NCBI GenBank assembly: GCA_951406725.2
Contig: OX597836.1
Span: 43,462,001-43,526,000 of the forward strand
Reading direction: 5' to 3'
Source of the DNA: Octopus vulgaris
Lineage: Eukaryota
Length of the DNA stretch: 64,000 bases
This document shows, piece by piece, positions 16,353 to 55,500 of this stretch (position 1 is the first letter of the stretch; every line of letters starts with the position of its first letter). A model generated the notes under the pieces. It searched no databases. It was not told the origin of the DNA and saw nothing but the letters and a program-made list of their open reading frames with translations. The translations under genes were made by a program, and so were the position numbers.

Positions 16353-16639
16353 TCCTTCTTTCTTTCCTTTCCCGAGCGTCCAATAATACTATAATCGTTC
16401 CATGTCCACACGTTGTTGTGTTTTCTCTTTGTGTATTCATGTTTGGATTAACTATATATATATATACTAGCATTAAAGACCCGTCGTTGCTGGGTCATAG
16501 TGCTAGTGCATGTATATATGTGTACATATTACATGTACATCTATATATATATATATATACATCTACACATAAAATACAAAATACAAAGTTATATCTTGAT
16601 ATCGCTAGTGATAACAATACTCAAAATATATAACAGATT

Positions 16640-16953
16640 GGAATTGTTAGCCCGTCTCTTGTAATTTCGATCAATTGTATCTTGTCCTCCTCTTGTATAG
16701 AAGTGTGGCTACAATCCAGCCTACCTCTACTTCGGGTGGGGGGGTGCATTTAAAATTTTGGGCGGGGACATCCTACGTCCCTGATATAAAGGTAAAAATA
16801 AAATATTTCCACTTTGCAAGTTTGAGTCGAGTACTCCCTTGCACGCTCCGTTGACTTGAACCTTGCTTCTATTGTGGCGAATTTACCGCCTCTGATTAGA
16901 TACTTTTCATAGTCGCACCAAGACACTTTTTGAAGGTGCTTTCCTCCATGTTG
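16640..16953 (-). pseudogene. Decayed fourth ORF1 (ORF1-D), downstream part
   Basis: Fragments NMEESTFKKCLGA / YLIRGGKFATIEARF / PPEVEVGWIVATLL match ORF1-B EIEKCLGD..RGKKFGTVEVR..PPEVKTEWL. Confidence 0.75.
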
Positions 16954-17197
16954 TTTTATTATTACCCACAAGGGGCGAACACAGATGGGACAATACATTC
17001 TGATGATGGGGTCAGACAAACGAATGGGTTTTTACAATAAATCGGGTTTAAAAATTTTCATGAATAACAATAAATGGACAAAAATCGAGTGATAGGACAG
17101 ACCGGAAGACATTACGGGTGGAGTGGGTGCGGGTTTAGCTCGGACCCCACGAGCCCCGCCTCCCCACTGATACTTTTGGTTGCACTTGGTATTACAT

Positions 17198-20100
17198 TTA
17201 TGTTGTAACTTTCATTCGCAACTTCCGTGCTACATCCTTCCATCGTTCTTCATACGCTCTCCTAGTCAGGCATATTCTCTCCAGCCCTATCTTCCTTTTC
17301 AGGTGAAAGATGAAATAATTCATCAAACCAGGGCCGGAGATGAACTTGCCTGACTGTAAACCTTTCATTCTCGTCTTCCATATCACCTCTTTCGCGATTG
17401 CTACTACAACGAGAAAACGAAACTTACCTTCATTCACGAGGAAATCCGGTGGGTCAATTTTTGTAATCGACTCAGTCGACAGCTGTACTCTTCGTGTACC
17501 TGACAACAGGTGTTCGGCATAAACCCACACCTCAGACACGTCCGGACAATGAACAATCGCGTGCGGGACGGTTTCCCTATCCCGCCCGCATCTTGGACAT
17601 ATCGGACTGTCTTGGCCACCGTGCCTTGCGAGTTTATCCCGAACAGGTAGAGCTCCTCTGTAGCATTGCCATGCCAGAGACTTCTGGAAGTTGTCCAGTG
17701 TCCTTGGCTCGAACGTACGTCGGAACAGACTGGCCAGCTGATTATCGTCGAGACCTAGGGTTTCCCCCAAGGTATCTTCACATTCCGCCTCTACCAACCC
17801 TCTATAGAAGAAAGTGGTGGAACCCCCACCGCAGGCGTTGCCCGAGCGACGGAATAGCAGGAGAGCCTTGCGACACTCCGTGTACCAAGTACCAAGTTTC
17901 GATCTACGATTCAGCCAGGTTTCCCATCCACCGAAACTAGTGAACTTGGGAAACATCAGTTTTGCTAGCGAAGACCACACCCGTTCACCATCCAGGTAGA
18001 GCCACAGATGTCTTAACCTCAGCGCATGTCTGCGCATCATCAGCCAAGGCATCCCTAGCCCACCCTTTAACGGTTGTTGACAGCAAGTAGAGCGTTTCAC
18101 AAGTGGTTTCCCGCCCTTCCACAAGAAGTAGAAGAGCTGTCTTTCCAACTTGATCAACCACGAATCAGGGCAAGGAACGACGGAAAGGCGGTAGGTGATA
18201 ACCGATGCGATAAACACATTGGCCACCTCCGCCCTCCCTTTCAGGGATAGCCACCGCCAAGACCAGGTCTTGGCTACTGCAGCCACCTTGCTCGTTACCT
18301 CGCCCCAATTCTTCTCTATTTGGAGGTCTGGACCGAACCAGACCCCTAGCAGTTTAATCGGACCCTCCGTCCAACGTCCCACGACGCTGTCAGGAGGCAT
18401 CGACTTGCCTCTCCAGGTGCCGAGTTGCAAGCCGACTGACTTTTCGCGATTAACTTTTGCTCCTGTCACCGTCTCGTACACCTCTATGGCCTTGCCTACT
18501 TTACATAGGTGGTCCATTTCGGTTACGATGATGGTGATGTCATCCGCGTACGCTGACACTGATTTTCCATTACCTGGCTGTCTCGGGATGCCGCTCAGTT
18601 TTCGCAGTAATGGCTCAAGAGCCATCACGTACAAAAGCGGGGAGAGCGGACACCCTTGACGAACCGAGCGTTTGATTTTGAACGGCTTCGACAAGAAGCC
18701 GTTCACCCGAACTACCGAGTCGATGTTATCATAAATTTCGATAATCCACCTGAGGAATCCAAGGCTCAGCCCGAACTGTGCCAGGGCAGATACCAGGTAA
18801 CGATGGTCGACCCTATCAAAAGCTTTAGATTGGTCTAAATGGACCAGTGCCCCACCCTTGCCAGAATCACTATTAAACCCCTCTATAGTGTACCGCATTA
18901 GATGGAGATTATCCTGAATGGATCTGCCCGGAACGGCACATGTCTGTGCCCCTCCGATCAGACCATCCGCGACACGCGCCAATCTTTTCGATAACACTTT
19001 GGCCAAAATCTTCAACTCTGTGTTTAGCAGAGTGATGGGCCTGAAATTATCAATGCACTCCCCTTGCTCGGGTCCTTTCTGACGAGAGTCACTACTCCCC
19101 GGCGCACAGATCTGGGTATAAGCCCGTTCTGCTGCCAGTTCGCGTAGACCTCCGCCAGTAGGTGCCCGAACAAGTCTGGCATACTCTTATATAACTCATA
19201 GGGTAGACCATCCAAACCCGGCGCCTTGCCCGCGCCGCAGTCCGCCATTGCCTCAACCACCTCCTCAGGCGTGATTGGCCCTTCACAGCCCTCCGCATCT
19301 CGCCCCGATAAGCGCGGCAGACCGTCGAGTAGGTCCGTAAAGGCCCTCCTCCTATCCAGTCCGCCGCACTCACCGAAAAGCTGAGCGAAGTGCTCCTGAA
19401 AGGCCTCACACATCTCCTCGGGTTCGTTTATCAACTCACCTTGTTGGTTCGTCAAAGATCGAATCGTGGCATCGTTACCATGCTGAGCTTCCACCACTCG
19501 GGCCCATCTCACGGCGTTGATTCCTTCACATCCCATATGACGGATTCTAGCCCTGACAATGCAGCCCATGTGTTTGGCCTCGAGGTGCTGGTTTAACACC
19601 AGTCTCTTGGCCGCCACCTGAGCCGCAGAGCCAGTTTTCATGGCTTCCTCTAATTCCTTAACTAGAGTAGTTTCCCTTCTAGCCTCTCTAGCCACTACTC
19701 CTATGCTATATCTAATAGACTCAAACTTGATGGCTCGTTTGAGGGCGTACCACCATTTGTTATTAATGATGGTACCAGATAGTGCCCTCTGAATTATATT
19801 CCTAATCCGGTCTTTGTACTCCTTAATCGCCAAAAGGGACGTATTAAGTTTCCAGTAACCGGATCCTCTATTTTTAACCTTGTCAAGCTTACAAGTGACC
19901 ATTTTATGATCACTGTAGCTGATCGGGTAAAACTGTGGACACTTAGCTATTTTACTGTCTACTTTTCTAATTAGTATTCTATCTAGATACGACCTGGAAG
20001 ATCCGTCGCTGTTTGACCATGTCCACAATGGAGCGTTCGGAAATTCCAGCCTATAAGGATCTGCTAGCTCAAAGCGGCTTAGCAGTTCCATGAAGCCACT

Positions 20101-20586
20101 GTTGCCTTTTCTATCTGGACACGAGCCAACATAATCTACATCCGCTTTGCAAATTGTGTTAAAGTCTCCTAGCACCACTAATGAATGCGAAGTACCAAGA
20201 AAGTTTTCTAGTTCACGAAAATAATCACTTTGCCCTGTATGGTTGGGTGCGTAAATTGCAACCAGTCTGATAACTTTACCATTACTGAACGTCAAATCCA
20301 TGACGACCAGCCTACCTTCTGGATCTGCAAAAATTAACTTTTTCTCAGAAACCCGGTTTCTTTTTAATAGGACCAACACCCCACTCCCGCCTGTAGGACT
20401 GCCAGGAGAGAAAAAACTCTCGTAGCCGTCAAACAGCGGGAGTAGACCTCTTGGCCCCTCTAGCCGGGTTTCTGTAGCAACAATAACATCTAAATTACGC
20501 GACCTGATATCATGCAGGAAGCGACCTTGCTTCCAGCCTGCTCCCAGGCCGCGCACATTTAAACAACCAACATAAATGTAATCCAT
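17198..20586 (-). CDS. ORF2: APE endonuclease / reverse transcriptase / zinc finger (about 1129 aa if one frameshift is corrected)
   Basis: CLNVRGL, ETR, GDFN, SYLDRIL, SDHK (APE); LDQSKAFDRV, RQGCPLSP, YADD (RT); CPRC...HAIVHC. One 1-bp loss in a G run at ~19060-19063; restoring it reads KG-ECIDNFRPITLLNTELKILAK. Confidence 0.92.
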
Positions 20587-20595
20587 TACTTACCT

Positions 20596-21997
20596 TTATA
20601 TCAGTGGTTCGGTTTTTTCTTCTTCTTCCTTCTCTTTTTCTGGGCCTCGTGGGGGAGTCTGACGTAGGCCCTCGAATATATGTGGAGATGTTACATCCAA
20701 CCTAAGTGGGCCTACGTCATGGAAGAAATCTGACTTTATCCGCCCGTAATCCTTCCGGTCTATTTTGTAAATTGCAAAGTCATTTTTTTCTCTACTCTCT
20801 TCACATTGGCCATGGCTGCCAACACGTTTCCGAGTCTGCTATTTGATGCTTTTACGGCCATATATGAGTTTATTGACTCTTTTTTCTTTTTTAAAATTAC
20901 TCTGGGAGGGGTGGTTTCCGTTTTTCTTTTTTTTTTTCCGATAATTTTTGCCCACCCCTCCTCATTTATCTTTTCCTCGCTCTTTTTTTCTCCGCCGCTG
21001 GTTCTGCTGTTACCATCACCTCCACACCTTCAGTCTTCCCTTCTGGGCCGTCTGACGCTGCTTCTGGTGACACATTGTCTTCTTTTCCTTTTGGCTTAGG
21101 TGCTTCCTGCGGTTTGGGTTGGGGCTGGCATTCCGCCCTTACATGCCCCTTCTTACCGCAGCCGAAGCACCTCGGCTTTCTGCCCTCTACGAAGACTGTG
21201 ACTCTTTCATCTTCGCTTATCCTAAGAGTCTCTGGGATCTCTTCCAGGGTTTGTACTTCTGCTTGTATGGCTATTATTATCTTTTGCCCTTTCCAGAATT
21301 CTTCTTCTTCTACGGTGGCCTGGAGGATGTTTATTTTTTCCTCCAGGCCTACCATAACTGCTGCCACTAGGACTTCGGCATCCGCTTCTGGCGGGATGTT
21401 GTTCATAGTGATTTTGGAAGTTCTCTTGCCTTTATACAGGGGTAGGAGAACAATATCCTCTGCTTTTATGGGTTCCATGGATAGCTTCTTCGCTACCTCC
21501 TCTGACGTGAATCTCACCTCCACTGTGCCGTATTTCTTCCCTCGATTGATATACGTAATTTTGTCCATTATTGGCTTTAAGCAGTTTTCAATCTTTTTCT
21601 CCTCTATTTTTTGGATTGCTCTGTTTGTTATACTGAATGTCTTATAGATTATTCTCCTATTCGAAATATCCTCTTGTATTTTGGCGTTTGAAGCCACGGT
21701 TACTTCTGTGCCCTCTTTTGACACACAGTCTGCATGTTTTCCCAGGTTGTCCACGTTAATTTTTTTAATTTTCTTCCCAGCCACTTCAGCGAATTTTTTT
21801 GCTGGAGTTGATGCTGGTACTGGTTTTACCATTTTCTTGGGCGACGCCGCCTCTTTTTTCTTCGGCGACAGCGCCTCTTTTTTCCTTGGCGACAACGCCT
21901 CTTTTTTACTTGGCGACAATGCCTCTTTTTTACTTGGCGACAACGCCGGGTATTCATCCTCGCTCGTCACGGGCGAATAAGTGATGGGGGACTCCAT
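20596..21997 (-). CDS. ORF1-A: RRM-like + CCHC zinc-knuckle RNA-binding protein (about 467 aa after two homopolymer corrections)
   Basis: ATG at 21997 (MESPITY); VEGRKPRCFGCGKKGHVRAEC knuckle; frame resumes after A-run indels (~20985, ~20785) and ends ...KTEPLI* 9 nt before the ORF2 ATG. Confidence 0.85.
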
Positions 21998-22228
21998 TTT
22001 GAACAAATGGCTTTAACAAGCCTTTGGTAATCTAAATTGATTGTAGTTTTCCCCCACTGAGGGGGGAACACCAACGCGAAGTCTTCGCGCGAAGGTTGAC
22101 TTCGTCAGTTAGACAACAATGGACAAAAAAAGGTAGACCAACAGTATATAATAACAGAGATAAGTAGTATGAGAGCAAAAATATATATCAACTTACTACT
22201 AACGCAAAAAATTGATTTCCTCCAGGTG

Positions 22229-24011
22229 ATTTTATTACTACCCACAAGGGGCGAACATAGAGGGGACAATACAATCGGGGAACTTAAAATAAGAAAGCGA
22301 AATGACAAGAAGGGAAAAAATAAAAATAAAAATGACAAATGAAAGAATATTTACAATGAGATGCAAATGCCCACTCGATCCCCGGAATCGAGAGGTTACA
22401 TTTTCGTCACATATAGTTCACAATTTTTTTTTTCTTTTTTCTCTTCTTTCTTCTCTCTCCTCTCACAATCTCACACGTATTCCATAATACTTTTCAAGTC
22501 TCTAAAGTCAATCACTGAGCCCTCAGGCAGCCGCTCTTTCACTCGAACACCCGTGTAAAAAATTACACTCTCTCCAGCTGCTCTGAGGAACTCAGCGACT
22601 CTTTCTTCGGGGATCAGAGCAGTCTCCTGCCACTGATCAGTCATCCTGTTGACCCACACATGTCCCTCCATACTACATGTCAATTCCTTCATTTCGGGGC
22701 TGAAATGGAAGGTTATTAACTTGTAGTAATCTTGTTTCCGTCCTACGTTTTCTCTCGTTTTTCTTTTCGGGCTTACTTCTTCCTTGTTCTCCTCTCTTTG
22801 TTTCTCTCTTTCTCTCTTTTTGCCTTCTTTTCTTTCTTCTTCCTTCTCTTGTCTTTTTGGTTCTTTGTCTGTTCTCTCTTTCTCTCGTGTTTTATGTTCC
22901 TTTTCTTTTTCTTTTTGTGTGCCGTCTTTTCTTTTCGTTTGATTCTGTTCTCTCTCTTGTTTTTTTCCTGTTGTTTCTTTTTCCTTTTTCTTTTCCTGAC
23001 TCTGTTTTGGTTCTATTTCTTTCTTTTCTTTTATTTCTTTTTCCTTCGTTGACTTATTATTTCCTTTCTCTTGTTGTTTTGTCTCCTTTTCTATGTTTTC
23101 TTTTTCATTTACCGTATTCTTCTTTTCTTCAGTTTCCTTCTCATACTCCGCCATGAATTCATATAACGGGCACTCTTTTTTAATGTGCCCCCTTGTCCCG
23201 CACAAGTAGCAGTTTGGCTTTCTTCCCTCTACAATTACACTGAGGGTTTTCTCGTCTTCGATTTCTATTCTATAGGGGAACCTTTCAATGTCCTCTTTTG
23301 TGGCCATCAAACACAGTTCTACCCCATATCCTCTCCAATTTACTGCGTTGGACTCCTTAAAGGATTCCACCTCCACTTCCTCTTCTGCTGCTCCTAGAAT
23401 AGCTGTTGCCAGCCATTCTGTTTTTACTTCTGGGGGTATATTCGGGATTTTAACCCGGACCCCTCTTCTTCCCTTGTATGAGGGCCACATTATAAATGTT
23501 TCCGCTCTTAGAACAGTGGTAGCCAGTGAGGCTGCAATTTCTTCCGTTGCACATCTCACCTCCACCGTACCAAATTTTTTTCCTCTACTCACGTAGGTCG
23601 ATTTATCCATTATGTCTCCCAGACATTTTTCGATCTCTGCTATCTCCACTCTTGCCAGTTTCTTTGTACTTTTGTCCTGGGTTCTATACGTTACAGTTTT
23701 GTTTTCTTTGTCCTCTTTTGCTTTCGCGGGGGGATTAGCTTCACGCTATCACCCTCCCTTTTGAATAGTTTTTCATATTCCTTGAGTTTACTCTTCTCAA
23801 AGAAGACATCCTTCACGATTATTGCCGAATCATTATTATTCTTTCCCGTGACCCCCGCGTAAGTCGCCATGACTAGAGGGTCAATTCACCTTCTTCGGAA
23901 GGTTTCCAAACGTGGAGGCAAATGCCTCGCGCGATATTAATCACTTTACACAACAAAATTTCAACGTCTAATCACAGATAACAACACACGTGGGTAAATT
24001 TCCTCGATGTG
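22229..24011 (-). mobile_element. ORF1-only retroelement unit B1 (ORF 22471-23870)
   Basis: MATYAGVT...CYLCGTRGHIKKEC...; own 5' UTR; 3' tail TTGTCCCCTCTATGTTCGCCCCTTGTGGGTAGTAATAAAAT; no ORF2; frameshift in a G6 run at ~23730. Confidence 0.88.
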
Positions 24012-25790
24012 ATTTTATTACTACCCACAAGGGGCGAACATAGAGGGGACAATACAATCGGGGAACTTAAAATAAGAAAGCGAAATGACAAGAAGGGAAA
24101 AAATAAAAATAAAAATGACAAATGAAAGAATATTTACAATGAGATGCAAATGCCCACTCGATCCCCGGAATCGAGAGGTTACATTTTCGTCACATATAGT
24201 TCACAATTTTTTTTTTCTTTTTTCTCTTCTTTCTTCTCTCTCCTCTCACAATCTCACACGTATTCCATAATACCTTTCAAGTCTCTAAAGTCAATCACTG
24301 AGCCCTCAGGCAGCCGCTCTTTCACTCGAACACCCGTGTAAAAAATTACACTCTCTCCAGCTGCTCTGAGGAACTCAGCGACTCTTTCTTCGGGGATCAG
24401 AGCAGTCTCCTGCCACTGATCAGTCATCCTGTTGACCCACACATGTCCCTCCATACTACATGTCAATTCCTTCATTTCGGGGCTGAAATGGAAGGTTATT
24501 AACTTGTAGTAATCTTGTTTCCGTCCTACGTTTTCTCTCGTTTTTCTTTTCGGGCTTACTTCTTCCTTGTTCTCCTCTCTTTGTTTCTCTCTTTCTCTCT
24601 TTTTGCCTTCTTTTCTTTCTTCTTCCTTCTCTTGTCTTTTTGGTTCTTTGTCTGTTCTCTCTTTCTCTCGTGTTTTATGTTCCTTTTCTTTTTCTTTTTG
24701 TGTGCCGTCTTTTCTTTTCGTTTGGTTCTGTTCTCTCTCTTGTTTTTTTCCTGTTGTTTCTTTTTCCTTTTTCTTTTCCTGACTCTGTTTTGGTTCTATT
24801 TCTTTCTTTTCTTTTATTTCTTTTTCCTTCGTTGACTTATTATTTCCTTTCTCTTGTTGTTTTGTCTCCTTTTCTATGTTTTCTTTTTCATTTACCGTAT
24901 TCTTCTTTTCTTCAATTTCCTTCTCATACTCCGCCATGAATTCATATAACGGGCACTCTTTTTTAATGTGCCCCCTTGTCCCGCACAAGTAGCAGTTTGG
25001 CTTTCTTCCCTCTACAATTACACTGAGGGTTTTCTCGTCTTCGATTTCTATTCTATAGGGGAACCTTTCAATGTCCTCTTTTGTGGCCATCAAACACAGT
25101 TCTACCCCATATCCTCTCCAATTTACTGCGTTGGACTCCTTAAAGGATTCCACCTCCACTTCCTCTTCTGCTGCTCCTAGAATAGCTGTTGCCAGCCATT
25201 CTGTTTTTACTTCTGGGGGTATATTCGGGATTTTAACCCGGACCCCTCTTCTTCCCTTGTATGAGGGCCACATTATAAATGTTTCCGCTCTTAGAACAGT
25301 GGTAGCCAGTGAGGCTGCAATTTCTTCCGTTGCACATCTCACCTCCACCGTACCAAATTTTTTTCCTCTACTCACGTAGGTCGATTTATCCATTATGTCT
25401 CCCAGACATTTTTCGATCTCTGCTATCTCCACTCTTGCCAGTTTCTTTGTACTTTTGTCCTGGGTTCTATACGTTACAGTTTTGTTTTCTTTGTCCTCCT
25501 TTGCTTTCGCGGGGGGATTAGCTTCACGCTATCACCCTCCCTTTTGAATAGCTTTTCATATTCTTTGATTTTACTTTTCTCAAAGAAAACATCCTTCACG
25601 ATTATTGCCGAATCATTATTATTCTTTCCCGTGACCCCCGCGTAAGTCGCCATGACTAGAGGGTCAATTCACCTTCTTCTGAAGGTTTCCAAACGTGGAG
25701 GCAAACGCCTCGCGCGATATTAATCACTTTACACAACAAAATTTCAACTTCTAATCACAGATAACAACACTTGGAGATTTCCTCCATGTG
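24012..25790 (-). mobile_element. ORF1-only unit B2 (ORF 24254-25653)
   Basis: Near-identical tandem copy of B1. Confidence 0.88.
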
Positions 25791-27571
25791 ATTTTATTAC
25801 TACCCACAAGGGGCGAACATAGAGGGGACAATACAATCGGGGAACTTAAAATAAGAAAGCGAAATGACAAGAAGGGAAAAAATAAAAATAAAAATGACAA
25901 ATGAAAGAATATTTACAATGAGATGCAAATGCCCACTCGATCCCCGGAATCGAGAGGTTACATTTTCGTCACATATAGTTCACAATTTTTTTTTTCTTTT
26001 TTTCTTCTTTCTTCTCTCTCCTCTCACAATCTCACACGTATTCCATAATACTTTTCAAGTCTCTAAAGTCAATCACTGAGCCCTCAGGCAGCCGCTCTTT
26101 CACTCGAACACCCGTGTAAAAAATTACACTCTCTCCAGCTGCTCTGAGGAACTCAGCGACTCTTTCTTCGGGGATCAGAGCAGTCTCCTGCCACTGATCA
26201 GTCATCCTGTTGACCCACACATGTCCCTCCATACTACATGTCAATTCCTTCATTTCGGGGCTGAAATGGAAGGTTATTAACTTGTAGTAATCTTGTTTCC
26301 GTCCTACGTTTTCTCTCGTTTTTCTTTTCGGGCTTACTTCTTCCTTGTTCTCCTCTCTTTGTTTCTCTCTTTCTCTCTTTTTGCCTTCTTTTCTTTCTTC
26401 TTCCTTCTCTTGTCTTTTTGGTTCTTTGTCTGTTCTCTCTTTCTCTCGTGTTTTATGTTCCTTTTCTTTTTCTTTTTGTGTGCCGTCTTTTCTTTTCGTT
26501 TGATTCTGTTCTCTCTCTTGTTTTTTTCCTGTTGTTTCTTTTTCCTTTTTCTTTTCCTGACTCTGTTTTGGTTCTATTTCTTTCTTTTCTTTTATTTCTT
26601 TTTCCTTCGTTGACTTATTATTTCCTTTCTCTTGTTGTTTTGTCTCCTTTTCTATGTTTTCTTTTTCATTTACCGTATTCTTCTTTTCTTCAATTTCCTT
26701 CTCATACTCCGCCATGAATTCATATAACGGGCACTCTTTTTTAATGTGCCCCCTTGTCCCGCACAAGTAGCAGTTTGGCTTTCTTCCCTCTACAATTACA
26801 CTGAGGGTTTTCTCGTCTTCGATTTCTATTCTATAGGGGAACCTTTCAATGTCCTCTTTTGTGGCCATCAAACACAGTTCTACCCCATATCCTCTCCAAT
26901 TTACTGCGTTGGACTCCTTAAAGGATTCCACCTCCACTTCCTCTTCTGCTGCTCCTAGAATAGCTGTTGCCAGCCATTCTGTTTTTACTTCTGGGGGTAT
27001 ATTCGGGATTTTAACCCGGACCCCTCTTCTTCCCTTGTATGAGGGCCACATTATAAATGTTTCCGCTCTTAGAACAGTGGTAGCCAGTGAGGCTGCAATT
27101 TCTTCCGTTGCACATCTCACCTCCACCGTACCAAATTTTTTCCTCTACTCACGTAGGTCGATTTATCCATTATGTCTCCCAGACATTTTTCGATCTCTGC
27201 TATCTCCACTCTTGCCAGTTTCTTTGTACTTTTGTCCTGGGTTCTATACGTTACAGTTTTGTTTTCCTTGTCCTCCTTTGCTTTCACGGGGGGGATTAGC
27301 TTCACGCTATCACCCTCCCTTTTGAATAGCTTTTCATATTCTTTGATTTTGCTTTTCTCAAAGAAAACATCCTTCACGATTATTGCTGAATCATTATTAT
27401 TCTTTCCCGTGACCCCCGCGTAAGTCGCCATGACTAGAGGGTCAATTCACCTTCTTCTGAAGGTTTCCAAACGTGGAGGCAAACGCCTCGCGCGATATTA
27501 ATCACTTTACACAACAAAATTTCAACTGTCTAATCACAGATAACAACACGCAAATAGATTTCCTCCAGGTG
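25791..27571 (-). mobile_element. ORF1-only unit B3 (ORF 26032-27431)
   Basis: Near-identical copy. Its G7 run keeps the N-terminus in frame; it has a frameshift in a T run at ~27135 instead. Confidence 0.88.
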
Positions 27572-29345
27572 ATTTTATTACTACCCACAAGGGGCGAACA
27601 TAGAGGGGACAATACAATCGGGGAACTTAAAATAAGAAAGCGAAATGACAAGAAGGGAAAAAATAAAAATAAAAATGACAAATGAAAGAATATTTACAAT
27701 GAGATGCAAATGCCCACTCGATCCCCGGAATCGAGAGGTTACATTTTCGTCACATATAGTTCACAATTTTTTTTTCTTTTTTCTCTTCTTTCTTCTCTCT
27801 CCTCTCACAATCTCACACGTATTCCATAATACCTTTTCAAGTCTCTAAAGTCAATCACTGAGCCCTCAGGCAGCCGCTCTTTCACTCGAACACCCGTGTA
27901 AAAAATTACACTCTCTCCAGCTGCTCTGAGGAACTCAGCGACTCTTTCTTCGGGGATCAGAGCAGTCTCCTGCCACTGATCAGTCATCCTGTTGACCCAC
28001 ACATGTCCCTCCGTACTACATGTCAATTCCTTCATTTCGGGGCTGAAATGGAAGGTTATTAACTTGTAGTAATCTTGTTTCCGTCCTACGTTTTCTCTCG
28101 TTTTTCTTTTCGGGCTTACTTCTTCCTTGTTCTCCTCTCTTTGTTTCTCTCTTTCTCTCTTTTTGCCTTCTTTTCTTTCTCCTTCCTTCTCTTGTCTTTT
28201 TGGTTCTTTGTCTGTTCTCTCTTTCGTGTTTTATGTTCCTTTTCTTTTTCCTTTTGTGTGCCGTCTTTTCTTTTCGTTTGATTCTGATCTCTCTCTTGTT
28301 TTTTTCCTGTTGTTTCTTTTTCCTTTTTCTTTTCCTGACTCTGTTTTGGTTCTATTTCTTTCTTTTCTTTTATTTCTTTTTCCTTCGTTGACTTATTATT
28401 TCCTTTCTCTTGTTGTTTTGTTTCCTTTTCTATGTTTTCTTTTTCATTTACCGTATTCTTCTTTCGAGTTCCTGCTCGCACTCCGCTACGAATTCGTATA
28501 ACGGGCACTCTTTTTTAATGTGCCCCCTTGTCCCGCACAAGTAGCAGTTTGGCTTTCTTCCCTCTACAATTACACTGAGGGTTTTCTCGTCTTCGATTTC
28601 TATTCTATAGGGGAACCTTTCAATGTCCTCTTTTGTGGCCATCAAACACAGTTCTACCCCATATCCTCTCCAATTTACTGCGTTGGACTCCTTAAAGGAT
28701 TCCACCTCCACTTCCTCTTCTGCTGCTCCTAGAATAGCTGTTGCCAGCCATTCTGTTTTTACTTCTGGGGGTATATTCGGGATTTTAACCCGGACCCCTC
28801 TTCTTCCCTTGTATGAGGGCCACATTATAAATGTTTCCGCTCTTAGAACAGTGGTAGCCAGTGAGGCTGCAATTTCTTCCGTTGCACATCTCACCTCCAC
28901 CGTACCAAATTTTTTTCCTCTACTCACGTAGGTCGATTTATCCATTATGTCTCCCAGACATTTTTCGATCTCTGCTATCTCCACTCTTGCCAGTTTCTTT
29001 GTACTTTTATCCTGGGTTCTATACGTTACAGTTTTGTTTTCTTTGTCCTCTTTTGCTTTCGCGGGGGGATTAGCTTCACGCTATCACCCTCCCTTTTGAA
29101 TAGTTTTCATATTCTTTGAGTTTACTCTTCTCAAAGAAAACATCCTTCACGATTATTGCCGAATCATTATTATTCTTTCCCGTGACCCCCGCGTAAGTCG
29201 CCATGACTAGAGGGTCAATTCACCTTCTTCGGAAGGTTTCCAAACGTGGAGGCAAATGCCTCGCGCGATATTAATCACTTTACACAACAAAATTTCAACG
29301 TCTAATCACAGATAACAACACACGTGGGTAAATTTCCTCCATGTG
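27572..29345 (-). mobile_element. ORF1-only unit B4 (ORF 27813-29204, several indels)
   Basis: Copy of B with a locally divergent patch at ~28460-28500 and small indels. Confidence 0.86.
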
Positions 29346-31078
29346 ATTTCTTTATTACCCACTAAGGGGCTACGAAGAATGGCGGACATAACAAAACATG
29401 GGGACATAGAACATTATAATTAAACTTTATGAAAATGAATTGTTAAACGAAAAAAATGATAAAATGAAAGCGATACCAACGGCCCCGTCCGTCAGCATCA
29501 CTTACCTGTCCTTTGTTTTTCATAGTCACTTGAATGTTCTTTGTCAATACGAATAAATTCCATATCCATTCTTACTCCGAAATACTCATCCATATTTTCC
29601 ACGAATTCATCGCTCATTCTTATATCTTTCACCTCCCAATTCTCCCTTTCACACCTCCCCATAAACTCACCTATGTTCTTCTTTTCAATCACAGCATACC
29701 TAGTCTCTCCAACATCATACCATTTATACTCTTCCATTAGACTTTTAACTTCTTTCTGTTCAGTCATAGTACAAATGTACGGCCTGGGTTCGATTTCAAT
29801 CTCTTGTGTGTGTGTATTCTTTTTTTTCTTTTGTTTTCTTGTTGGGGGGGAGCGGGTGGGTTCAATGTCTGCATGGATAGGGTGGGACTCAGAGGGTGTG
29901 GGTGGTTTTGGGGTAGATTGGAGTTCCATATTATTTTCTTTTTTTCCACGTATTCTTCTCTTCCTCTTACTTCCAGCTTCCTTCCATTTCTGTGTATTCT
30001 CTTCCTCTGTTTCCTTCTCCTCTGGTTTCTGCTTCTCTCTCTCTGGTTCGGAATCCATTTCTTTCCCTGGGGGAGGGCAGAAGGCTCTTATGTGACCCCT
30101 CAGGCCACACTTGTAACAACGTGGAGCCCTGCCCTCCACCCACACTCTCATGATCACGTCTCCCAGTCTGATGCTTTCCGTCAGGTCCACCAGTACCTCG
30201 GTCTCTGCCTGTACGTTCAGCTCCACCGTTACGCCTCTCCAGCCCTCGGACTTAACCGAGGCATGGAGAATATCCACTTCGTCCTCGTGGCCGCTGATCA
30301 CAGCCGCCACAATCCATTCTGCCTCCACGTTTGGTGGCACTCCCTCCACCCTTATTCGTGTAATCCTCCTGTTTAAATACGTAGGTAATAGGGTTACCTT
30401 TTCTGACTTCACCGCCTTCGCCGCCATCTTCCTCGCTGCAGACTCAGTTTTGAAATGCACAACTACGGTACCGTACTTGGATCCTCGAGTCAGAAAATTT
30501 ATTTCCTCCTCAGTTCTTCGCAGGGCCTCCTCTATCCATTCCATGGTTACAACTTCTACCCTCTTCCTTTCGTTTGCGAACACCCTGTAAATAATGGTCC
30601 TCTTATCATACCATTCCTTTCTCCTGGGTGTCGGTGATAGTTCCACCTCACCGCTTTCCTTTTTCATGTATTTCTGGTAACTTGGCAACTTGGCCATGTC
30701 TACCCCTTTCTCTTCCGCCTTCTTGGTTACACCGGCATAGGTATAACCCAGCTTCTCTTCCAAATTCCTTGCTGCCATTTCTAGCTCTTTCTCAGACGTA
30801 GGCAGGTCTGATAAAGACTCGAAAATTCCAGCCTTTTCTTCCATCAGCTTCATTGCAATTGCCTGTTCCAGTTCCTCATCTGTCGTGGACAAGTCTGTTA
30901 GAGACTCATAGTCCATTTCCTTCTGTCTGACAGACCGAGAACGGCCGCCAAAATAGAAAAAGTGTAACGCGCTGAACGAGCGAAACGCGAAACCGCATCA
31001 ACGCCGTTCAGAACCTCCACAACAACAACAACGCTTCTTGTTCTTTTTTACCGAATTTCAGGAGCCGAAAAAAAACGT
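29346..31078 (-). mobile_element. ORF1-only unit C1
   Basis: Own 5' UTR; 3' tail GCCCCTTAGTGGGTAATAAAGAAAT; no ORF2. Confidence 0.88.
29498..30916 (-). CDS. ORF1-C (472 aa, intact): RRM-like + CCHC knuckle
   Basis: TYAGVTKK, RGSKYGTVVVHF, LLPTY..R, VPPNV, VEGRAPRCYKCGLRGHIRAFC; motif order collinear with ORF1-A and ORF1-B. Confidence 0.9.
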   Translation of the reverse strand: MDYESLTDLSTTDEELEQAIAMKLMEEKAGIFESLSDLPTSEKELEMAARNLEEKLGYTYAGVTKKAEEKGVDMAKLPSYQKYMKKESGEVELSPTPRRKEWYDKRTIIYRVFANERKRVEVVTMEWIEEALRRTEEEINFLTRGSKYGTVVVHFKTESAARKMAAKAVKSEKVTLLPTYLNRRITRIRVEGVPPNVEAEWIVAAVISGHEDEVDILHASVKSEGWRGVTVELNVQAETEVLVDLTESIRLGDVIMRVWVEGRAPRCYKCGLRGHIRAFCPPPGKEMDSEPEREKQKPEEKETEEENTQKWKEAGSKRKRRIRGKKENNMELQSTPKPPTPSESHPIHADIEPTRSPPTRKQKKKKNTHTQEIEIEPRPYICTMTEQKEVKSLMEEYKWYDVGETRYAVIEKKNIGEFMGRCERENWEVKDIRMSDEFVENMDEYFGVRMDMEFIRIDKEHSSDYEKQRTGK

Positions 31079-32831
31079 ATTTCTTTATTACCCACTAAGG
31101 GGCTACGAAGAGTGCCGGACATCACAAAACATGGGGACATAGAACATTATAATTAAACTATATGAACATGAAGTGTTAAACGAAAAAAATGATAAAATGA
31201 AAGCGATACCAACGGCCCCGTCCGTCAGCATCACTTACCTGTCCTTTGTTTTTCATAGTCACTTGAATGTTCTTTGCCAATACGAATAAATTCCATATCC
31301 ATTCTTACTCCGAAATACTCATTCATATTTTCCACGAATTCATCGCTCATTCTTATATCTTTCACCTCCCAATTCTCCCTTTCACACCTCCCCATAAACT
31401 CACCTATGTTCTTTTTTTCAATCACAGCATACCTAGTCTCTCCAACATCATACCGTTTATACTCTTCCATTAGACTTTTAACTTCCCTCTGTTCAGTCAT
31501 AGTACAAATGTACGGCCTGGGTTCGATTTCAATCTCTTGTGTGTGTGTATTCTTTTTTTCTTTTGTTTTCTTGTTGGGGGGAGCGGGTGGGTTCAATGTC
31601 TGCATGGATAGGGTGGGACTCAGAGGGTGTGGGAGGTTTTGGGGTAGATTGGAGTTCCATATTATTTTCTTTTTTTCCACATATTCTTCTCTTCCTCTTA
31701 CTTCCAGCTTCCTTCCATTTCTGTGTATTCTCTTCCTCTGTTTCCTTCTCCTCTGGTTTCTGCTTCTCTCTCTCTGGTTCGGGATCCATTTCTTTCCCTG
31801 GGGGAGGGCAGAAGGCTCTTATGTGACCCCTCAGGCCACACTTGTAACAACGTGGAGCCCTGCCCTCCACCCACACTCTCATGATCACTTCTCCCAGTCT
31901 GATGCTTTCCGTCAGGTCCACCAGTACCTCGGTCTCTGCCTGTACGTTCAGCTCCACTGTTATGCCTCTCCAGCCCTCGGACTTAACCGAGGCATGGAGA
32001 ATATCCACTTCGTCCTCGTGGCCGCTGATCACAGCCGCCACAATCCATTCTGCCTCCACGTTTGGTGGCACTCCCTCCACCCTTATTCGTGTAATCCTCC
32101 TGTTTAAATACGTAGGTAACAGTGTTACCTTTTCCGACTTCACTGCCTTCGCTGCCATCTTCCTCGCTGCAGATTCACTTTTAAAGTGCACAACTACGGT
32201 CCCGTACTTGGATCCTCGAGTCAGAAAATTTATTTCCTCCTCAGTTCTTCGCAGGGCTTCCTCTATCCATTCCATGGATACAACTTCTACCCTCTTCCTT
32301 TCGTTTGCGCACACCCTGTAAACAATGGTCCTCTTATCATACCATTCTTTTCTCCTGGGTGTCGGTGATAGTTCCACCTCACCGCTTTCCTTTTTCATGT
32401 ATTTCTGGTAACTTGGCAACTTGGCCATGTCGACCCCTTTCTCTTCCGCCTTCTTGGTTACACCGGCATAGGTATAACTCAGCTTGTCTTCCAATTTCCT
32501 TGCTGCCATTTCTAGCTCCTTCTCAGACGTAGGCAAGTCTGATAAAGACTCGAAAACTCCAGCCTTTTCCTCCATCAGCTTCACTGCAATTGCCTGTTCC
32601 AGTTCCTCATCCGTCGTGGACAAGTCTGTTAGAGACTCATAGTCCATTTCCTTCTGTCTGACAGACCGAAAACGGCCGCCAAAACAGAAAAAGTGTAACG
32701 CGCTGAACGAGCGAAACGCGAAACCGCGTCAACGCCGTTCAGAATTTCCACAACAACAACAACGCTTTTTGTTCTTTTTTACCGAATTTTCAGGAGCCGA
32801 GAAAAAAAAACACGGAGCCGAAAAAAAAACG
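31079..32831 (-). mobile_element. ORF1-only unit C2 (ORF 31231-32647, one frameshift near 31570)
   Basis: Diverged copy of C1; its 5' end has a duplicated GTTTTTTTTTC(TC)GGCTCC motif. Confidence 0.88.
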
Positions 32832-32880
32832 ACCTTTTTTCTCTACATTGTATACTTTATAGACAATAGTCTTTTCTTTA
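32832..32880 (-). pseudogene. Decayed ORF1-D, upstream part
   Basis: EKTIVYKVYNVEKKG resembles ORF1-C KRTIIYRVFANERK and ORF1-B NKTVTYRTQDKSTKK, which lie just upstream of the KCLG motif found across the array. Confidence 0.55.
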
Positions 32881-34189
32881 ATTTAATTTTTTATTATCCA
32901 TCTGGACTATTCCATTTCTGCATGCTAATTTTATTTTTAATTTATTCCCATTCATGTGAAACCACTTATTCAAGTTCAAATCATTGATGCAATTTTATAC
33001 CAATTGCTATTTTTACTTTTGTCATGTTACTTTAGTTTGATTTTAATTATTACTTACTACATATAATTCAATTGTTATTATTATTTTTATTGTTAAAGTG
33101 AAAGTATCTGACATAAAATAGGGAAACGTTTTTGTTTCACTTTTAACACGTAATGCTGAAATAGTGGAGAAGATATGATATTGCTATGGACTCGCTCTAG
33201 GCCAGAAGTTGAAAATTTTTTGTTGCCCATGAAACTACATGTGTAAAATTTGAATGAAATTGGTTGTGTAGTTCTCAAGTTTTAGGCAAACACACAGACA
33301 GACAGACACACATTCTCAGTTTTATATATATAAAGATATATCATCATCATTTAACATCCGTTTTCCGTGCTAGCACGGGTTGGATGGTTCAACTGGGGTC
33401 TGGGAAGCCAGGAGGCTGCACCAGGCTCCAGTCTGATCTGGCAGTGGCCACGATCAGTTGGTGCTTTTTACGTGCCACCGGCACAGAAGCCAGTCAAGGC
33501 GGTGCTGGCATCAGCCATGTTCGGATGGTGCTTTTTACATGTCGCCGGCACAGGTATCACAACTACAATTTCCTTTTAATATTTATTTTGATGTTGATGT
33601 ACTTGACTCAATAGGTCTCCTCAAGCACAGCAGGTCGCCCTATGATCCAAGGTAAACACAGCAGGTCGTTCTGCAATCCAAGGTACTTCGGATGGGCTGG
33701 GGCTATGCGAAACTGGTGCAGGAAGCAGCCATGAACTCACATTATTTGTCGGGTCTTTGCAGTCACAGCATATCTCCAGAGATCTCGGTCTTTCGTCATT
33801 GCCTCTGTGAGGCCTAACGTTCAAAGGTCATGCTTGACTACCTCATCCCATGTCTTCCTGGGTCTACCTCTCCTCCGGATACCTTCAACTGTTTGGGAGT
33901 GGCACTTCTTCACACATCTCTCCTTATCCATCTGCAGTACATATGTGTGTGTGTGTGTGGATATGCAATGGCCCAGTGGTTAGGGCAGTGGACTTGCAGT
34001 CATAGGATCGTGGTTTCGATTCCCAGACCGGGCGTTGTGAGTGTTTATTGAGTGAAAACACCTAAAAGCTCCAAAAAGCTCCAGCAGGGGGTGGTGGTGA
34101 TCCCTGCTGTACTTTTTCACCACAACCTTCTCTCACTCTTTCTTCTGATGGTTTGGTTGGTCATGTGATATATATATATATATATATAT

Positions 34190-35082: not shown

Positions 35083-35985
35083 TTAACCCTTTCATTACCG
35101 TATTTATTTTGAGATACTCCGTGTTTCTTTCAGTTATTTTAAATTTAACAAAGAATTTATTAAAATAACTTGGTTATCATTAAGCTAGTGTTAGAAACAT
35201 AAATTGTGACTAAGGTTTGGTGGAAGATTTTAATTCAAAACTTATGAAAACAAGGCATTTGTACTACTGAGCCAGAGGCGGATTCAGCCAGGTTGGTATC
35301 AGAAGGGTTAAATACAACAAAGAATTTATTAAAATAACTTAGTTATCATTAAGCTAATGTTAGGAACATAAATTGTGACTAAGGTTTGGTGGAAGATTTT
35401 TATTCAAAATTTATGAAAACAAGACATTTGTCCTCAGAGCCAGAGCTGGTTTCAGCCGGGTTGGTATCAGAAGGGTTAAATATACAAAGAATTTATTAAA
35501 ATAACTTAGTTATCATTAAGCTAGTGTTAGGAACATAAATTGTGACTAAGGTTTGGTGGAAGATTTTTATTCAAAATTTATGAAAACAAGACATTTGTCC
35601 TCAGAGCCAGAGCTGGTTTCAGCCGGGTTGGTATCAGAAGAGTTAAATATACAAAGAATTTATTAAAATAACTTAGTTATCATTAAGCTAGTGTTAGGAA
35701 CATAAATTGTGACTACGGTTTGGTGGAAGATTTTAATTCAAAACTTAAGAAAACAAGGCATTTGTACTACAGAGCCAGAAGCGGTATCAGCCGGGTTGGT
35801 ATCAGAAGGGTTAAATATAACAAAGAATTTAGTAAAATAACTTAGTTATCATTCAGCTAGTGTTAGGAACATAAATTGTGACTAAGGTTTGGTGGAAGAT
35901 TTTAATTCAAAACTTAAGAAAACAAGGCATTTGTACTACAGAGTGAGAGGCAGTTTCGGCCGGGTTGATAATGAAAGGGTTAAAG
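35083..35985. repeat. TTAA-flanked MITE amplified into five ~168-bp tandem units
   Basis: ACAAAGAATTTA at ~35148, 35317, 35484, 35651, 35820; TTAACCCTTT...AAGGGTTAA ends; monomer copies at ~14105 and ~46967. Confidence 0.88.
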
Positions 35986-38421: not shown

Positions 38422-41400
38422 CTTAACCCCTTAGCATTCAAACCAGCTATATCTCACCCAAGTGGAGGTGCAATGGCCCAGTGGTTAGGACAGCGGACTC
38501 GTGGTCATAGGATCGCGGTTTCAATTCCCAGACCGGGCGTTGTGAGTGTTTATTGAGCGAAAACACCTAAAAAGCTCCACGAGGCTCCGGCAGGGGATGG
38601 TGGTGATCCCTGCTGTACTCTTTCACCACAACTTTCTTTCACTCTTTCTTCCTGTTTCTGTTGTACCTGTATTTTCAAAGGGCCGGCCTTGTCACTCTCT
38701 GTGTCACGCTGAATATCCCCGAGAACTGCGTTAAGGGTACACGTGTCTGTGGAGTGCTCAGCCACTTACACGTTAATTTCACGGATCAACCGGAACCCTC
38801 GTCGTTGTAACTGACGGAGTGCTTCCATCCATCCATCTCACCCAAATATTCTACCTGCATTATGTTCAAATTGATCTGATCAGGCCTTTCCCACCTACCC
38901 TATGGTTGGTTGTTCCTTCTCGACCCATGCCTGGCTCATAAGGGCCGGTTTCCCGGTTTCCTTGGAGTATAGGTTCCCCACCTGGATGGGACACCGGTCC
39001 GTCGCAGGTGAGCTGCAAGATGCAGGAGGAAAGAGTGAGAGAAAGTTGTGGCGAAAGATTCAGCAGAAGTTTCGCCATTACCTTCTGCCAGAGCCGCGTG
39101 GAGCTTAGGTGCTTCGCTCATAAACACACACATCGGCCGGTCTGAGATTTGAACTCGCGATCCCTCGACCGCGAGTCCGCTGCTCTAACCACTAGGCCAT
39201 GTGCCTCCACCCACCTACCCTATGATATCATTCTAAAAGTAACCAATCACTTCATTAAAATCTCAAAGCTACAAGATAATGCAAGATTGGTTCAGAGCAA
39301 TGTTAATTAATAAATAAGGATTACGTTGAGGTTCTGAGAGATAATGGTGTCATTGAGAACCAAAGGTGTCAAGTAATGCTGAATAAGTGCTATAGACAGA
39401 CCATAGTTAAGTTCCAGATTCAGTAATATTGCAAATAAAGGGCTCAACGTTGGTTCTATGTCAGCGTGTGTATATATGAATTTAAGGATAATAAGGATTA
39501 CACTTGACAAAATAAGGATAAATAAGGATTACATTTGACAAAATAAGGATAAATAAGGATTACATTTGACAAAATAAGGATAAATAAGGATTACATTTGA
39601 CGAAATAAGGATAAATAAGGAATACTTTTGACACAATAAGGATTACATTTGACAAAATAAGGATAAATAAGGAATACTTTTGACACAATAAGGATTACTT
39701 TTGACAAAATAAGGATAAATAAGGAATACTTTTGACACAATAAGGATTACATTTGACAAAATAAGGATAAATAAGGATTACTTTTGACAAAATAAGGATT
39801 AGATTTGACAAAATAAGGATTACATTTGACAAAATAAGGATGACAAATAAGGATAAATAAGGATTACATTTGACAAAATAAGGATAATAAAGATTACATT
39901 TGACAAAACAAGGATAAATAAGGATTATATTTGACAAAATAAGGACAAATAAGGATTACTTTTGACAAAATAAGGATAAAGAAGGATTACTTTTGACAAA
40001 ATAAGGATAAATAAGGATTACATTTGACAAAATAAGGATAATAAAGATTACATTTGACAAAATAAGGATGACAAAATAAGGATTACATTTGACAAAATAA
40101 GGATAAATAAGGATTACTTTTGACAAAATAAGGATAAATAAGGATTACTTTTGACAAAATAAGGATAAATAAGGAATACTTTTGACACAATAAGGATTAC
40201 TTTTGACAAAATAAGGATAAATAAGGAATACTTTTGACACAATAAGGATTACTTTTGACAAAATAAGGATAAATAAGGATTACTTTTGACAAAATAAGGA
40301 TTAGATTTGACAAAATAAGGATTACATTTGACAAAATAAGGATGACAAATAAGGATAAATAAGGAATACTTTTGACACAATAAGGATTACTTTTGACAAA
40401 ATAAGGATAAATAAGGAATACTTTTGACACAATAAGGATTACTTTTGACAAAATAAGGATAAATAAGGATTACTTTTGACAAAATAAGGATTAGATTTGA
40501 CAAAATAAGGATTACATTTGACAAAATAAGGATGACAAATAAGGATAAATAAGGATTACATTTGACAAAATAAGGATAATAAAGATTACATTTGACAAAA
40601 TAAGGATAAATAAGGATTATATTTGACAAAATAAGGATAAATAAGGATTACTTTTGACAAAATAAGGATAAAGAAGGATTACTTTTGACAAAATAAGGAT
40701 AAATAAGGATTACATTTGACAAAATAAGGATAATAAAGATTACATTTGACAAAATAAGGATGACAAAATAAGGATTACATTTGACAAAATAAGGATAAAT
40801 AAGGATTACTTTTGACAAAATAAGGATAAATAAGGATTACTTTTGACAAAATAAGGATAAATAAGGATTACTTTTGACTAAATAAGGATTACTTTTGACA
40901 AAATAAGGATAAATAAGGATTACATTTGACAAAATAAGGATAAATAAGGATTACTTTTGACAAAATAAGGATTACTTTTGACAAAATAAGGATTACATTT
41001 GACAAAATAAAGATGACAAAATAAGGATAATAAAGATTACATTTGACAAAATAAGGATGACAAAACAAGGATAAATAAGGATTACATTTGACAAAATAAG
41101 GATAAATAAGGATTACATTTGACAAAATAAGGATTAGATTTGACAAAATAAGGATAATAAAGATTACATTTGACAAAATAAGTATGACAAAATAAGGATT
41201 ACATTTGACAAAATAAGGATTACATTTGACAAAATAAAGATTAGATTTGACAAAATAAGGATAAATAAGTTTTACATTTGACAAAATAAGGATAAATAAG
41301 GATTACATTTGACAAAATAAGGATTAGATTTGACAAAATAAGGATAATAAAGATTACATTTGACAAAATAAGGATGACAAAATAAGGATTACATTTGACA

Positions 41401-48362: not shown

Positions 48363-48386
48363 TATCTATTTTGTTCTCAATTCCAG

Positions 48387-54589: not shown

Positions 54590-55500
54590 GTTCTCTACTA
54601 CATGTTGTTATGTCCTACTACTACATGTTGTTATGCCTCACTACCAAATGTTGCTGTCCCACTACTATATGTTGTTTTCCAATTACTATAAGACGTTATG
54701 TCCTACTACTACATGTTGTTATTCCCCACTACTATATGCTGCTATGCTCCCACTTCTGTATGTTATTGTTGCCCACTATTCTATCTTGCTATGTCCCACT
54801 TCTACATGTTGTTCTGTCCCACTACTATATATTGTTATTCCCCTCTACCAAATGTTGTTTTGTCCCATTACTACATGTTATGTCCCATTACCATATGTAG
54901 CTATGTCCCACTACTACATGTTGTTCTGTCCCACTACTACATGTTGTTCTGTCCCACTACTACATGTTGTTCTGTCCCACTACTATATATTGTTATTCCC
55001 CTCTACCAAATGTTATGTTCCATTACTACATGTTGTTCTGTCCCACTACTATATATTGTTATTCCCCTCTACCAAATGTTGTTATGTCCCATTACCATGT
55101 GTTGCTATGTCCCACTACTACATGTTGTTCTGTCCCACTACTATACATTGTTATTCCCCTCTACCAAATGTTGTTATGTCCCATTACCATGTGTTGCTAT
55201 GTCCCACTACTACATGTTGTTCTGTCCCACTACTATACATTGTTATTCCCCTCTACCAAATGTTGTTTTGTCCTATTACTACATGTTGTTATGTCCCATT
55301 ACCATGTGTTGCTATGTCCCACTGCTATACATTGTTATTCCCCTCTACCAAATGTTGTTTTGTCCCATTACTACATGTTGTTATGTCCCATTACCATGTG
55401 TTGCTATGTCCCACTACTACATGTTGTTCTGTCCCATTATTATATGTCGTTAGGTCTCGCTTATGTACCACTATCATATACTGTTATATTCCACTACTAT
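54590..55500. repeat. ~23-bp minisatellite (CCCACTACTACATGTTGTTCTGT variants)
   Basis: Directly visible tandem units. Confidence 0.93.

What the first reader, a model, noticed from the sequence alone, without database searches (positions are those of the whole stretch)
16467..33336. The whole LINE array sits inside a Helitron: a Tx1L/Tx1D-like nested composite
Seen: a Helitron-type 5' end (A|TC, TATATA, (TCTG)n, AACTACACAACCAATTTCATTCAAATTT) at 33336 and a Helitron-type 3' end (GACCC..GGGTC hairpin, then CTAG|T) at 16467. Both are on the - strand and face each other. Removing the array leaves ~1 kb, a typical non-autonomous Helitron size. Known: Xenopus Tx1L inserts site-specifically into the DNA transposon Tx1D. 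Inference: this Helitron family may be the preferred landing pad for the LINE, and could mobilise the 17-kb composite by rolling circle.
Basis: partly seen in the sequence, partly recalled or inferred. Interest (0 to 1): 0.8.

Follow-up and report, generated by a model that had tools for sequence, protein, structure and literature searches.

The report
Retrotransposon stacks inside a Helitron
In an octopus genome, a LINE jumping gene and partners that keep only its RNA-binding gene sit stacked at one exact spot in over a hundred copies of a small rolling-circle transposon; that spot lies in a scrap of their own kind of gene, which the transposon likely picked up and spread, and the 17-kb stack shows no sign of having moved as a whole.

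Summary
Observation confirmed. Both ends belong to one non-autonomous Helitron of about 1 kb, and empty copies are common (25 of 35 related loci; 327 exact empty sites genome-wide). The array is one complete L1/Tx1-type LINE plus six ORF1-only units of two families, not seven LINEs.

Targeting holds across the genome: 104 exact filled junctions, and 43 bounded arrays of 32 different make-ups, all at the same site. The site lies inside an ORF1 relic of the same LINE lineage. A longer host form carries its 5' UTR and a 175-codon open frame, so this Helitron has spread LINE DNA before. One base matters: 24% of ACATGG sites are filled against 2% of ACCTGG sites. A sister LINE uses a different word at the same distance, in a deleted host form.

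Stacks were built in place, likely at their 5' side. No moved composite was found: filled hosts differ by 2.2% or more, while their inserts mostly differ by under 1%.

Tx1 LINEs that target transposons are known; I found no report of a Helitron host or of a self-derived site. This scan noted the same system before on other DNA of this genome.

The parts
32835..33336 (-). 5' half of the non-autonomous Helitron host (A|TC end at 33336)
32835..32879 (-). Upstream piece of the ORF1 relic carried by the Helitron (reads KEKTIVYKVYNVEKK)
31079..32834 (-). ORF1-only unit A1 (frame broken). Its head replaces the bases upstream of the target. Likely the last unit inserted.
29346..31078 (-). ORF1-only unit A2, ORF1 30916-29498 open; the same sub-lineage as lone A insertions
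27572..29345 (-). Target-like linker plus ORF1-only unit B1 (frame broken)
25791..27571 (-). Linker plus ORF1-only unit B2 (frame broken)
24012..25790 (-). Linker plus ORF1-only unit B3 (424-codon open frame)
22229..24011 (-). Linker plus ORF1-only unit B4 (424-codon open frame, zinc knuckle)
16953..22228 (-). Linker plus complete LINE C of L1/Tx1 type. Likely the first unit inserted.
20966..21997 (-). ORF1 of C, 343 aa: two predicted RRM domains and a CCHC knuckle
17198..20586 (-). ORF2 of C: endonuclease, reverse transcriptase, zf-RVT. One-base frameshift near 19060 in this copy; open over 1131 aa in 15 of 29 full-length copies.
16940..16951 (-). Target word ACATGGAGGAAA; the empty site reads GATTTGAAC|ACATGGAGGAAAGCACC
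16640..16951 (-). Downstream piece of the ORF1 relic (frameshifted here). Its end holds the word used by the sister LINE in the deleted host form (16651-16640).
16467..16952 (-). 3' half of the Helitron host, with hairpin at 16496-16478 and CTAG|T end

Best explanation
A roughly 1-kb non-autonomous Helitron carries a relic of a LINE ORF1 gene, and a complete L1/Tx1-type LINE and its ORF1-only partners lie at one exact base inside that relic at many loci, the partners likely copied by the LINE's enzyme and the stacks likely built in place, one unit at a time, from the 5' side. Shown: host ends, empty copies, the fixed site, the relic, different array make-ups, and old hosts with young inserts. 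Inferred, step by step: (1) The Helitron took up the 5' UTR and front half of ORF1 of a LINE relative and spread it; two deletions then gave the 1-kb and 0.7-kb forms. (2) ORF2p nicks at C|AC(A/C) in this context and primes reverse transcription, and the partners are recognised by their shared 3' tail. (3) Each full-length B or C unit leaves a target-like 12-base linker at its 5' junction, so the site next to the Helitron's 5' half is renewed and reused. (4) A units overwrite that site, after which mainly A sub-lineages add on. In the window the order would be C first and A1 last. The Helitron supplies and multiplies the site; it has not been seen to move a stack.
For: Empty and filled alleles of one family. 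Exact counts of 327 empty and 104 filled. 43 of 49 mapped regions are bounded by both halves, with 32 make-ups and 1.8-44 kb of insert; 41 of 43 follow the order A, B, C. Relic: 36% identity over 118 aa to C ORF1, E 1e-22; HH probability 99.3; 175-aa open frame with a start codon in the long host form. 29 of 30 long-form loci have the Helitron 5' half upstream. RNA route for the partners: shared tail, 5'-truncated C copies with longer duplications, and A>G-only copies (45 of 48, 16 of 16 and 21 of 23 private changes). Built in place: A1 and A2 differ by 2.9%, while each has a copy 0.2% away elsewhere. 5' growth: the most diverged B/C units are 3'-most in 5 arrays that mix old and young units. 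The 4 lone A insertions are all of the type found 3'-most in A runs, and A sub-lineage matches what follows it in 64 of 66 units (shuffles: mean 42.6, max 55). Sequence matters: ACATGG 104 filled/327 empty against ACCTGG 13/565, Fisher p 2e-28. Context matters: the sister LINE (ORF2 93% identical) sits in the deleted host in 7 of 7 resolved loci, though that word is four times commoner in undeleted hosts (161 against 627).
Against: No enzyme test; nick position and trans-mobilisation are inferred. 18 of 100 tails lie elsewhere. Two long B arrays contain identical neighbours, so local duplication also builds arrays. Two arrays break the A, B, C order. The one apparent old-upstream case is an A>G-edited copy. 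Gene conversion between arrays could mimic the sub-lineage pattern, and the A sample was drawn by likeness to A2. About 45 of at least 117 filled hosts were resolved, so a rare moved composite could be missed. The free source of the relic was seen only as search rows. The ACA/ACC contrast could be confounded with host subfamily.
Confidence: 0.82

Rival explanations
1. One reading: the Helitron moves the whole LINE-filled composite by rolling circle, and many filled loci are copies of a few composites.
For: Ends intact. A young 6.2-kb autonomous Helitron family (14 of 20 fetched loci, 98-99.7% alike) has similar termini. The host has carried about 1 kb of LINE DNA before. A units share an odd 5' junction across loci.
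Against: No filled pair of hosts is closer than 2.2% among 37, and filled hosts are no more alike than empty ones (medians 5.0% and 3.8%). There are 32 make-ups in 43 arrays. The best hits to the window's halves are 93% and 96%. No DNA homology to autonomous ends beyond short motifs.
Confidence: 0.07
2. The site is chosen by position, for example a transcription start behind a TATA-like box or a host factor bound on the Helitron's 5' half (as for TRE5-A), not by its letters.
For: In full and deleted hosts the junction lies 7 bases after the same GAAGA although the downstream letters differ. One B unit inserted at that base in front of an unrelated word (locus C20b). A TATAAAG lies 39 bases upstream. 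Earlier notes propose this for relatives.
Against: One base changes the fill rate tenfold. The 6 distinct off-target sites with a resolved duplication all read C|AC(A/C), with no TATA box near -30 by eye. The sister LINE's off-target flanks begin ATTCC. The absence of long-form hosts among 45 filled ones is explained by their ACC word.
Confidence: 0.25
3. The RNA chooses the site: transcripts read a few bases into what follows them, and those bases must pair with the nicked strand, so each sub-lineage returns to the flank it came from.
For: A sub-lineage is tied to the following sequence in 64 of 66 units. C and its sister differ in target word with ORF2 93% identical. 5' linkers carry variants shared across chromosomes and unlike the locus's own 3' copy.
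Against: No RNA ends were seen, only contigs. Endonuclease changes between C and its sister could explain the switch. This is compatible with the best explanation as an added step.
Confidence: 0.4
4. The Helitron is only a passive frame; the real target is the ORF1 gene of a relative, wherever it lies.
For: The site is inside the relic. Search rows suggest longer ORF1 copies of the relic's family, one of which also has the ACCTGG site.
Against: All 43 bounded arrays lie in Helitron hosts. The hot ACA word and the deletion that serves the sister LINE are features of Helitron subfamilies. The ancestral-looking ACC word is rarely filled.
Confidence: 0.2
5. Assembly artefact, or one tandem amplification.
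For: Units are 97-99% alike. Homopolymer frameshifts occur in many copies.
Against: Window units are as close or closer to copies on other contigs. Contigs of independent runs show the empty junction (X1, X4, X6, X8) and one spans the Helitron-A junction (X4).
Confidence: 0.02

Closest known systems
Tx1L in Tx1D (Xenopus); Tx1-Mar and SINEU-3 in Mariner-N4_AMi; Tx1-9_AMi in Harbinger; Tx1-8_Crp and Tx1-4_AMi in LTR elements (PMC4494074: passages and section 15 read)
   Same: An endonuclease/RT LINE of the L1/Tx1 group lands at a fixed place in a non-autonomous transposon, and non-autonomous partners share the target.
   Different: The host is a Helitron, the partners code for ORF1, the site lies in an ORF1 relic of the same lineage, and stacks reach 44 kb. 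The text has no mention of Helitron; the target labels in its Fig. 3 and its supplements were not seen.
ORF1-only non-autonomous LINEs HeT-A, HAL1 and Ag-Sponge (PMC5786205: passages read; the HAL1 paper was not held)
   Same: Keep ORF1 and a 3' tail, and lack ORF2. Head-to-tail arrays with an autonomous partner recall HeT-A/TART (recalled, not from a call).
   Different: Those derive from the Jockey, L1 and CR1 clades as listed there. Here several old ORF1 families (31-32% identity to C) share an internal, sequence-defined site.
Canonical Helitrons with captured gene fragments (Helraiser; PMC4778049: passages read)
   Same: 5' TC, 3' hairpin and CTAG, insertion between A and T, a captured fragment, and tandem copies.
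   Different: The captured fragment is a retrotransposon gene that acts as a landing site for its own relatives.
TRE5-A of Dictyostelium (PMC5911963: passages read)
   Same: An L1-type element that inserts at a fixed distance from a landmark.
   Different: TRE5-A is guided by TFIIIB near tRNA genes. Here a short sequence word clearly matters and no host factor is shown.

Membership tests
Non-autonomous canonical Helitron | 5' TC preceded by A | tested here: met
   A|TC in 30 of 32 filled hosts with a complete 5' end; also in empty copies
Non-autonomous canonical Helitron | 3' hairpin, then CTRR followed by T | tested here: met
   Hairpin z -3.5; T follows in 37 of 37 ends that kept CTAG
Non-autonomous canonical Helitron | Dispersed multicopy element with sharp ends | tested here: met
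   970 and 248 exact junction motifs for the short and long forms; different flanks
Non-autonomous canonical Helitron | No target-site duplication | not tested
   Flanks are mostly (TA)n; no orthologous empty flank was compared
Non-autonomous canonical Helitron | Autonomous RepHel partner with matching ends | tested here: inconclusive
   Similar end motifs in 16 of 20 fetched RepHel loci, but no longer homology
L1/Tx1-group LINE (unit C) | ORF2 with AP endonuclease, RT and C-terminal zinc motif | tested here: met
   PF03372, PF00078, PF13966; best solved relative is L1 ORF2p, E 7e-65, ahead of R2 at 5e-26
L1/Tx1-group LINE (unit C) | ORF1 with RNA-binding domains and knuckle | tested here: met
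   Model at pLDDT 82 matches tandem-RRM proteins at E about 5e-5 with low TM-scores; zf-CCHC
Tx1 clade in the strict sense | RT tree places it with named Tx1 families | not testable with these tools
   No named reference set was at hand; only 1 of 25 homologues had a name, an automatic TX1 label at 26% identity
Target-specific LINE (criterion in PMC4494074: over 20% of flanks of one type) | Flanks dominated by one repeat at one base | tested here: met
   59 of 100 tails directly on the site; 82 of 100 counting array linkers and the deleted host
ORF1-only non-autonomous LINE (HAL1/HeT-A type; units A, B) | ORF1, no ORF2, 3' tail shared with the autonomous partner, independent insertions | tested here: met
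   lone A at 3 and lone B at 3 of 43 bounded loci
ORF1-only non-autonomous LINE (HAL1/HeT-A type; units A, B) | Moved in trans by the partner's ORF2p | not testable with these tools
   Inferred from the shared site and tail, and from A>G-edited copies
Helitron-mobilised composite transposon | Twin composites in different flanks | tested here: not met
   No pair of filled hosts closer than 2.2% among 37; 32 make-ups in 43 arrays

The most novel reading that the evidence does not exclude
A self-feeding pair of transposons. A Helitron captured the front of a LINE and scattered over a thousand copies of what became that lineage's landing site. One point change and one deletion in Helitron subfamilies then redirected two sister LINEs with near-identical enzymes, with the site set by a fixed distance from the Helitron's 5' half plus a few RNA read-through bases rather than by new endonuclease specificity. 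Target choice would then switch through the RNA, and occasional stacks could still be carried by the Helitron.
Probability: 0.3. Interest if true: 0.85.

Novelty: new variant of a known kind. Interest (0 to 1): 0.62.

Why it matters
How endonuclease-type LINEs gain and switch target sites is poorly resolved. This genome holds a natural series: three host forms, two target words one base apart with a tenfold difference in use, two sister LINEs with 93% identical ORF2, and partner sub-lineages tied to their flank. That makes enzyme, RNA and position models directly testable. It also shows one class of transposon making safe landing sites for another out of the other's own gene, and it explains 2-44 kb head-to-tail arrays that annotation reads as host genes.

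Tried and rejected
Composite mobilisation: no twin found. An autonomous Helitron with ends homologous to the host: only short motif likeness in 20 loci. A TATA box behind off-target sites: not seen in the 6 resolved ones; the other off-target loci gave no usable duplication. Long host form as evidence for a position effect: 0 of 45 filled hosts are long, but 27 of 29 long forms carry the weak ACC word, so I rejected it as evidence. Age gradient in A runs from divergence: no clear trend. A longer protein for the relic in the protein database: none among 908 candidates, which is weak evidence; the free source family stayed unfetched. A profile test of the relic failed on a script error and was replaced. 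Expression: no RNA holder listed; the contigs laid cannot show starts, ends or levels. Look-up of earlier findings by sequence was blank. Literature: ten searches and passages of PMC8967140, PMC10294476 and PMC9004415 showed no LINE described as targeting a Helitron. Repbase and Dfam entries, subscription papers, figures and supplements were not seen and could hold such a family.

Full report
What is there. On the minus strand, 33336-16467 reads: Helitron 5' half, A1, A2, B1-B4, C, Helitron 3' half. C is a complete LINE. Its ORF1 is 343 aa, and its ORF2 has endonuclease, RT and zf-RVT domains and is closest among solved structures to L1 ORF2p. This copy has a one-base frameshift; 15 of 29 full-length copies are open over 1131 aa. 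A and B are units of about 1.75 kb with ORF1 only, 31-32% identical to C ORF1. The ORF1 core is predicted as two RRM domains plus a knuckle. All units end in nearly the same tail. Near-identical proteins carry an octopus name.

The host. The two ends belong to one family. Of 35 distinct non-self loci, 25 were empty hosts of about 1 kb, 3 were a deleted 0.7-kb form and 7 were filled at the same base. Ends are A|TC (30 of 32) and hairpin-CTAG|T (37 of 37 that kept CTAG), as described for Helraiser. Exact motifs give 970 short-form and 248 long-form junctions. Young RepHel elements with similar end motifs are present, but no partner is proven.

Targeting. The empty site reads GATTTGAAC|ACATGGAGGAAAGCACC (327 exact copies); 104 exact filled junctions exist. 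In the 30 best loci for each unit's 3' end (window copies included), C was followed by the host half in 22, by another unit in 4 and by other DNA in 4. B and A were followed by the host half or by array sequence in all 30 each, once two A flanks were resolved. A less biased sample, the first 100 of 152 exact tails, gave 59 on the site, 13 on linkers, 10 at the site of the deleted host and 18 elsewhere. Single full-length B and C insertions are flanked by about 12 bases of target-like repeat, while A units lose the upstream bases. Of 49 mapped regions, 43 were bounded by both halves, with 32 make-ups; 41 follow the order A, B, C. Three of the other six were off-target and three were not resolved.

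The site lies in an ORF1 relic. The flanks of the site translate into ORF1-like peptide. Natural host copies keep that frame open: 36% identity over 118 aa to C ORF1, E 1e-22. A longer host form adds about 570 bases with a UTR-like stretch and a start codon, giving a 175-aa frame that stops before the knuckle. 29 of 30 such loci have the Helitron 5' half upstream, and none is filled. The relic is its own branch, closest by identity to the sister LINE's ORF1 (up to 47%). I infer capture of the front of a LINE relative, spread by the Helitron, then two deletions. Rows hint at the free source but were not read.

What fixes the site. Sequence: ACATGG sites are filled at 104 of 431 and ACCTGG sites at 13 of 578, and resolved off-target sites read C|AC(A/C). 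Context: a sister LINE (ORF2 93% identical) uses ATTCC exactly 7 bases after the same upstream GAAGA. It lies in the deleted host in 7 of 7 loci with a resolved 5' half; four more were unresolved or truncated. The same word is commoner in undeleted hosts (627 against 161; chance about 1.5e-5). So a short word plus upstream flank is needed. Whether the enzyme, RNA read-through or a host factor reads them is open.

How stacks grow. Window units are independent insertions: A1 and A2 differ by 2.9%, but each has a copy 0.2% away elsewhere. Some long B runs have identical neighbours, so duplication also occurs. The most diverged B/C units lie 3'-most in five mixed arrays, and linkers drift from the original word towards the 5' side. 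Lone A insertions are of the type found 3'-most in A runs, and sub-lineage matches the following sequence in 64 of 66 units. Both point to growth at the 5' junction, so C came first and A1 last; gene conversion is a caveat. The window's own units show none.

Did the composite move? Filled hosts differ by 5.0% at the median and never by less than 2.2%; the window's host is 3.4% from its nearest, and its inserts are 0.15-0.7% from theirs. The host spread first and was filled later. The sample covers under half of the filled sites, so rare events are not excluded.

Comparison and verdict. It works like Tx1L/Tx1D and Tx1-Mar, with HeT-A/HAL1-type partners. Strict Tx1 membership could not be tested. 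Ten searches found no Helitron-targeting LINE and no self-derived site; Repbase, figures and supplements were not seen. The scan's earlier notes describe the same system on other DNA of this genome; they are leads, not support. New variant of a known kind; interest 0.62.

Noticed in passing
window 47257-48365 (+), 58780-59329 (-), about 52755 and 53362 (-): A SINE-like repeat, partly in 184-bp tandem arrays, ends in the same tail as units A, B and C; this LINE lineage is its likely partner.
   Followed up: partly
G000:C25:30667456 and 30672279 (L041, L042, L164-L165): Two 5'-truncated C copies end directly in front of a tRNA-like SINE head that begins ACATGG.
   Followed up: partly
G000:C19:52500-72499 (L134-L135): Three head-to-tail Helitron hosts of one haplotype; only the middle one is filled (B, C, C), so filling followed tandem formation.
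   Followed up: partly
L228-L241: A very young 6.2-kb autonomous Helitron family, 98-99.7% alike, with frames up to 1744 codons.
   Followed up: partly
G000:C11:23294287, 24230457, 26662534 (L309, L310, L322, L323, L329): A further ORF1-only family (72% to B) sits outside the Helitron in three near-identical flanks at C|ACCTCTC, probably duplicated segments.
   Followed up: partly
G000:C2:150138900, C15:795000, C3:20070500 arrays: Single A or B copies with almost only A>G private changes (45 of 48, 16 of 16, 21 of 23).
   Followed up: yes
window 32905-32835; arrays on C17, C15, C2, C8, C9: Some internal A units are preceded by 20-70 bases of the Helitron 5' half, several starting at C|AGATGG, one mismatch from the target word.
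   Followed up: partly
window 39483-44256, 49567-51040, 54595-55456, 35139-35984: Long tandem arrays of 31/52, 31, 23 and 167 bp.
   Followed up: no
G000:C14:73410871 and 73445992; C7:100131528 and 100146784: Pairs of filled sites 35 kb and 15 kb apart; the second member of each pair was not read.
   Followed up: no
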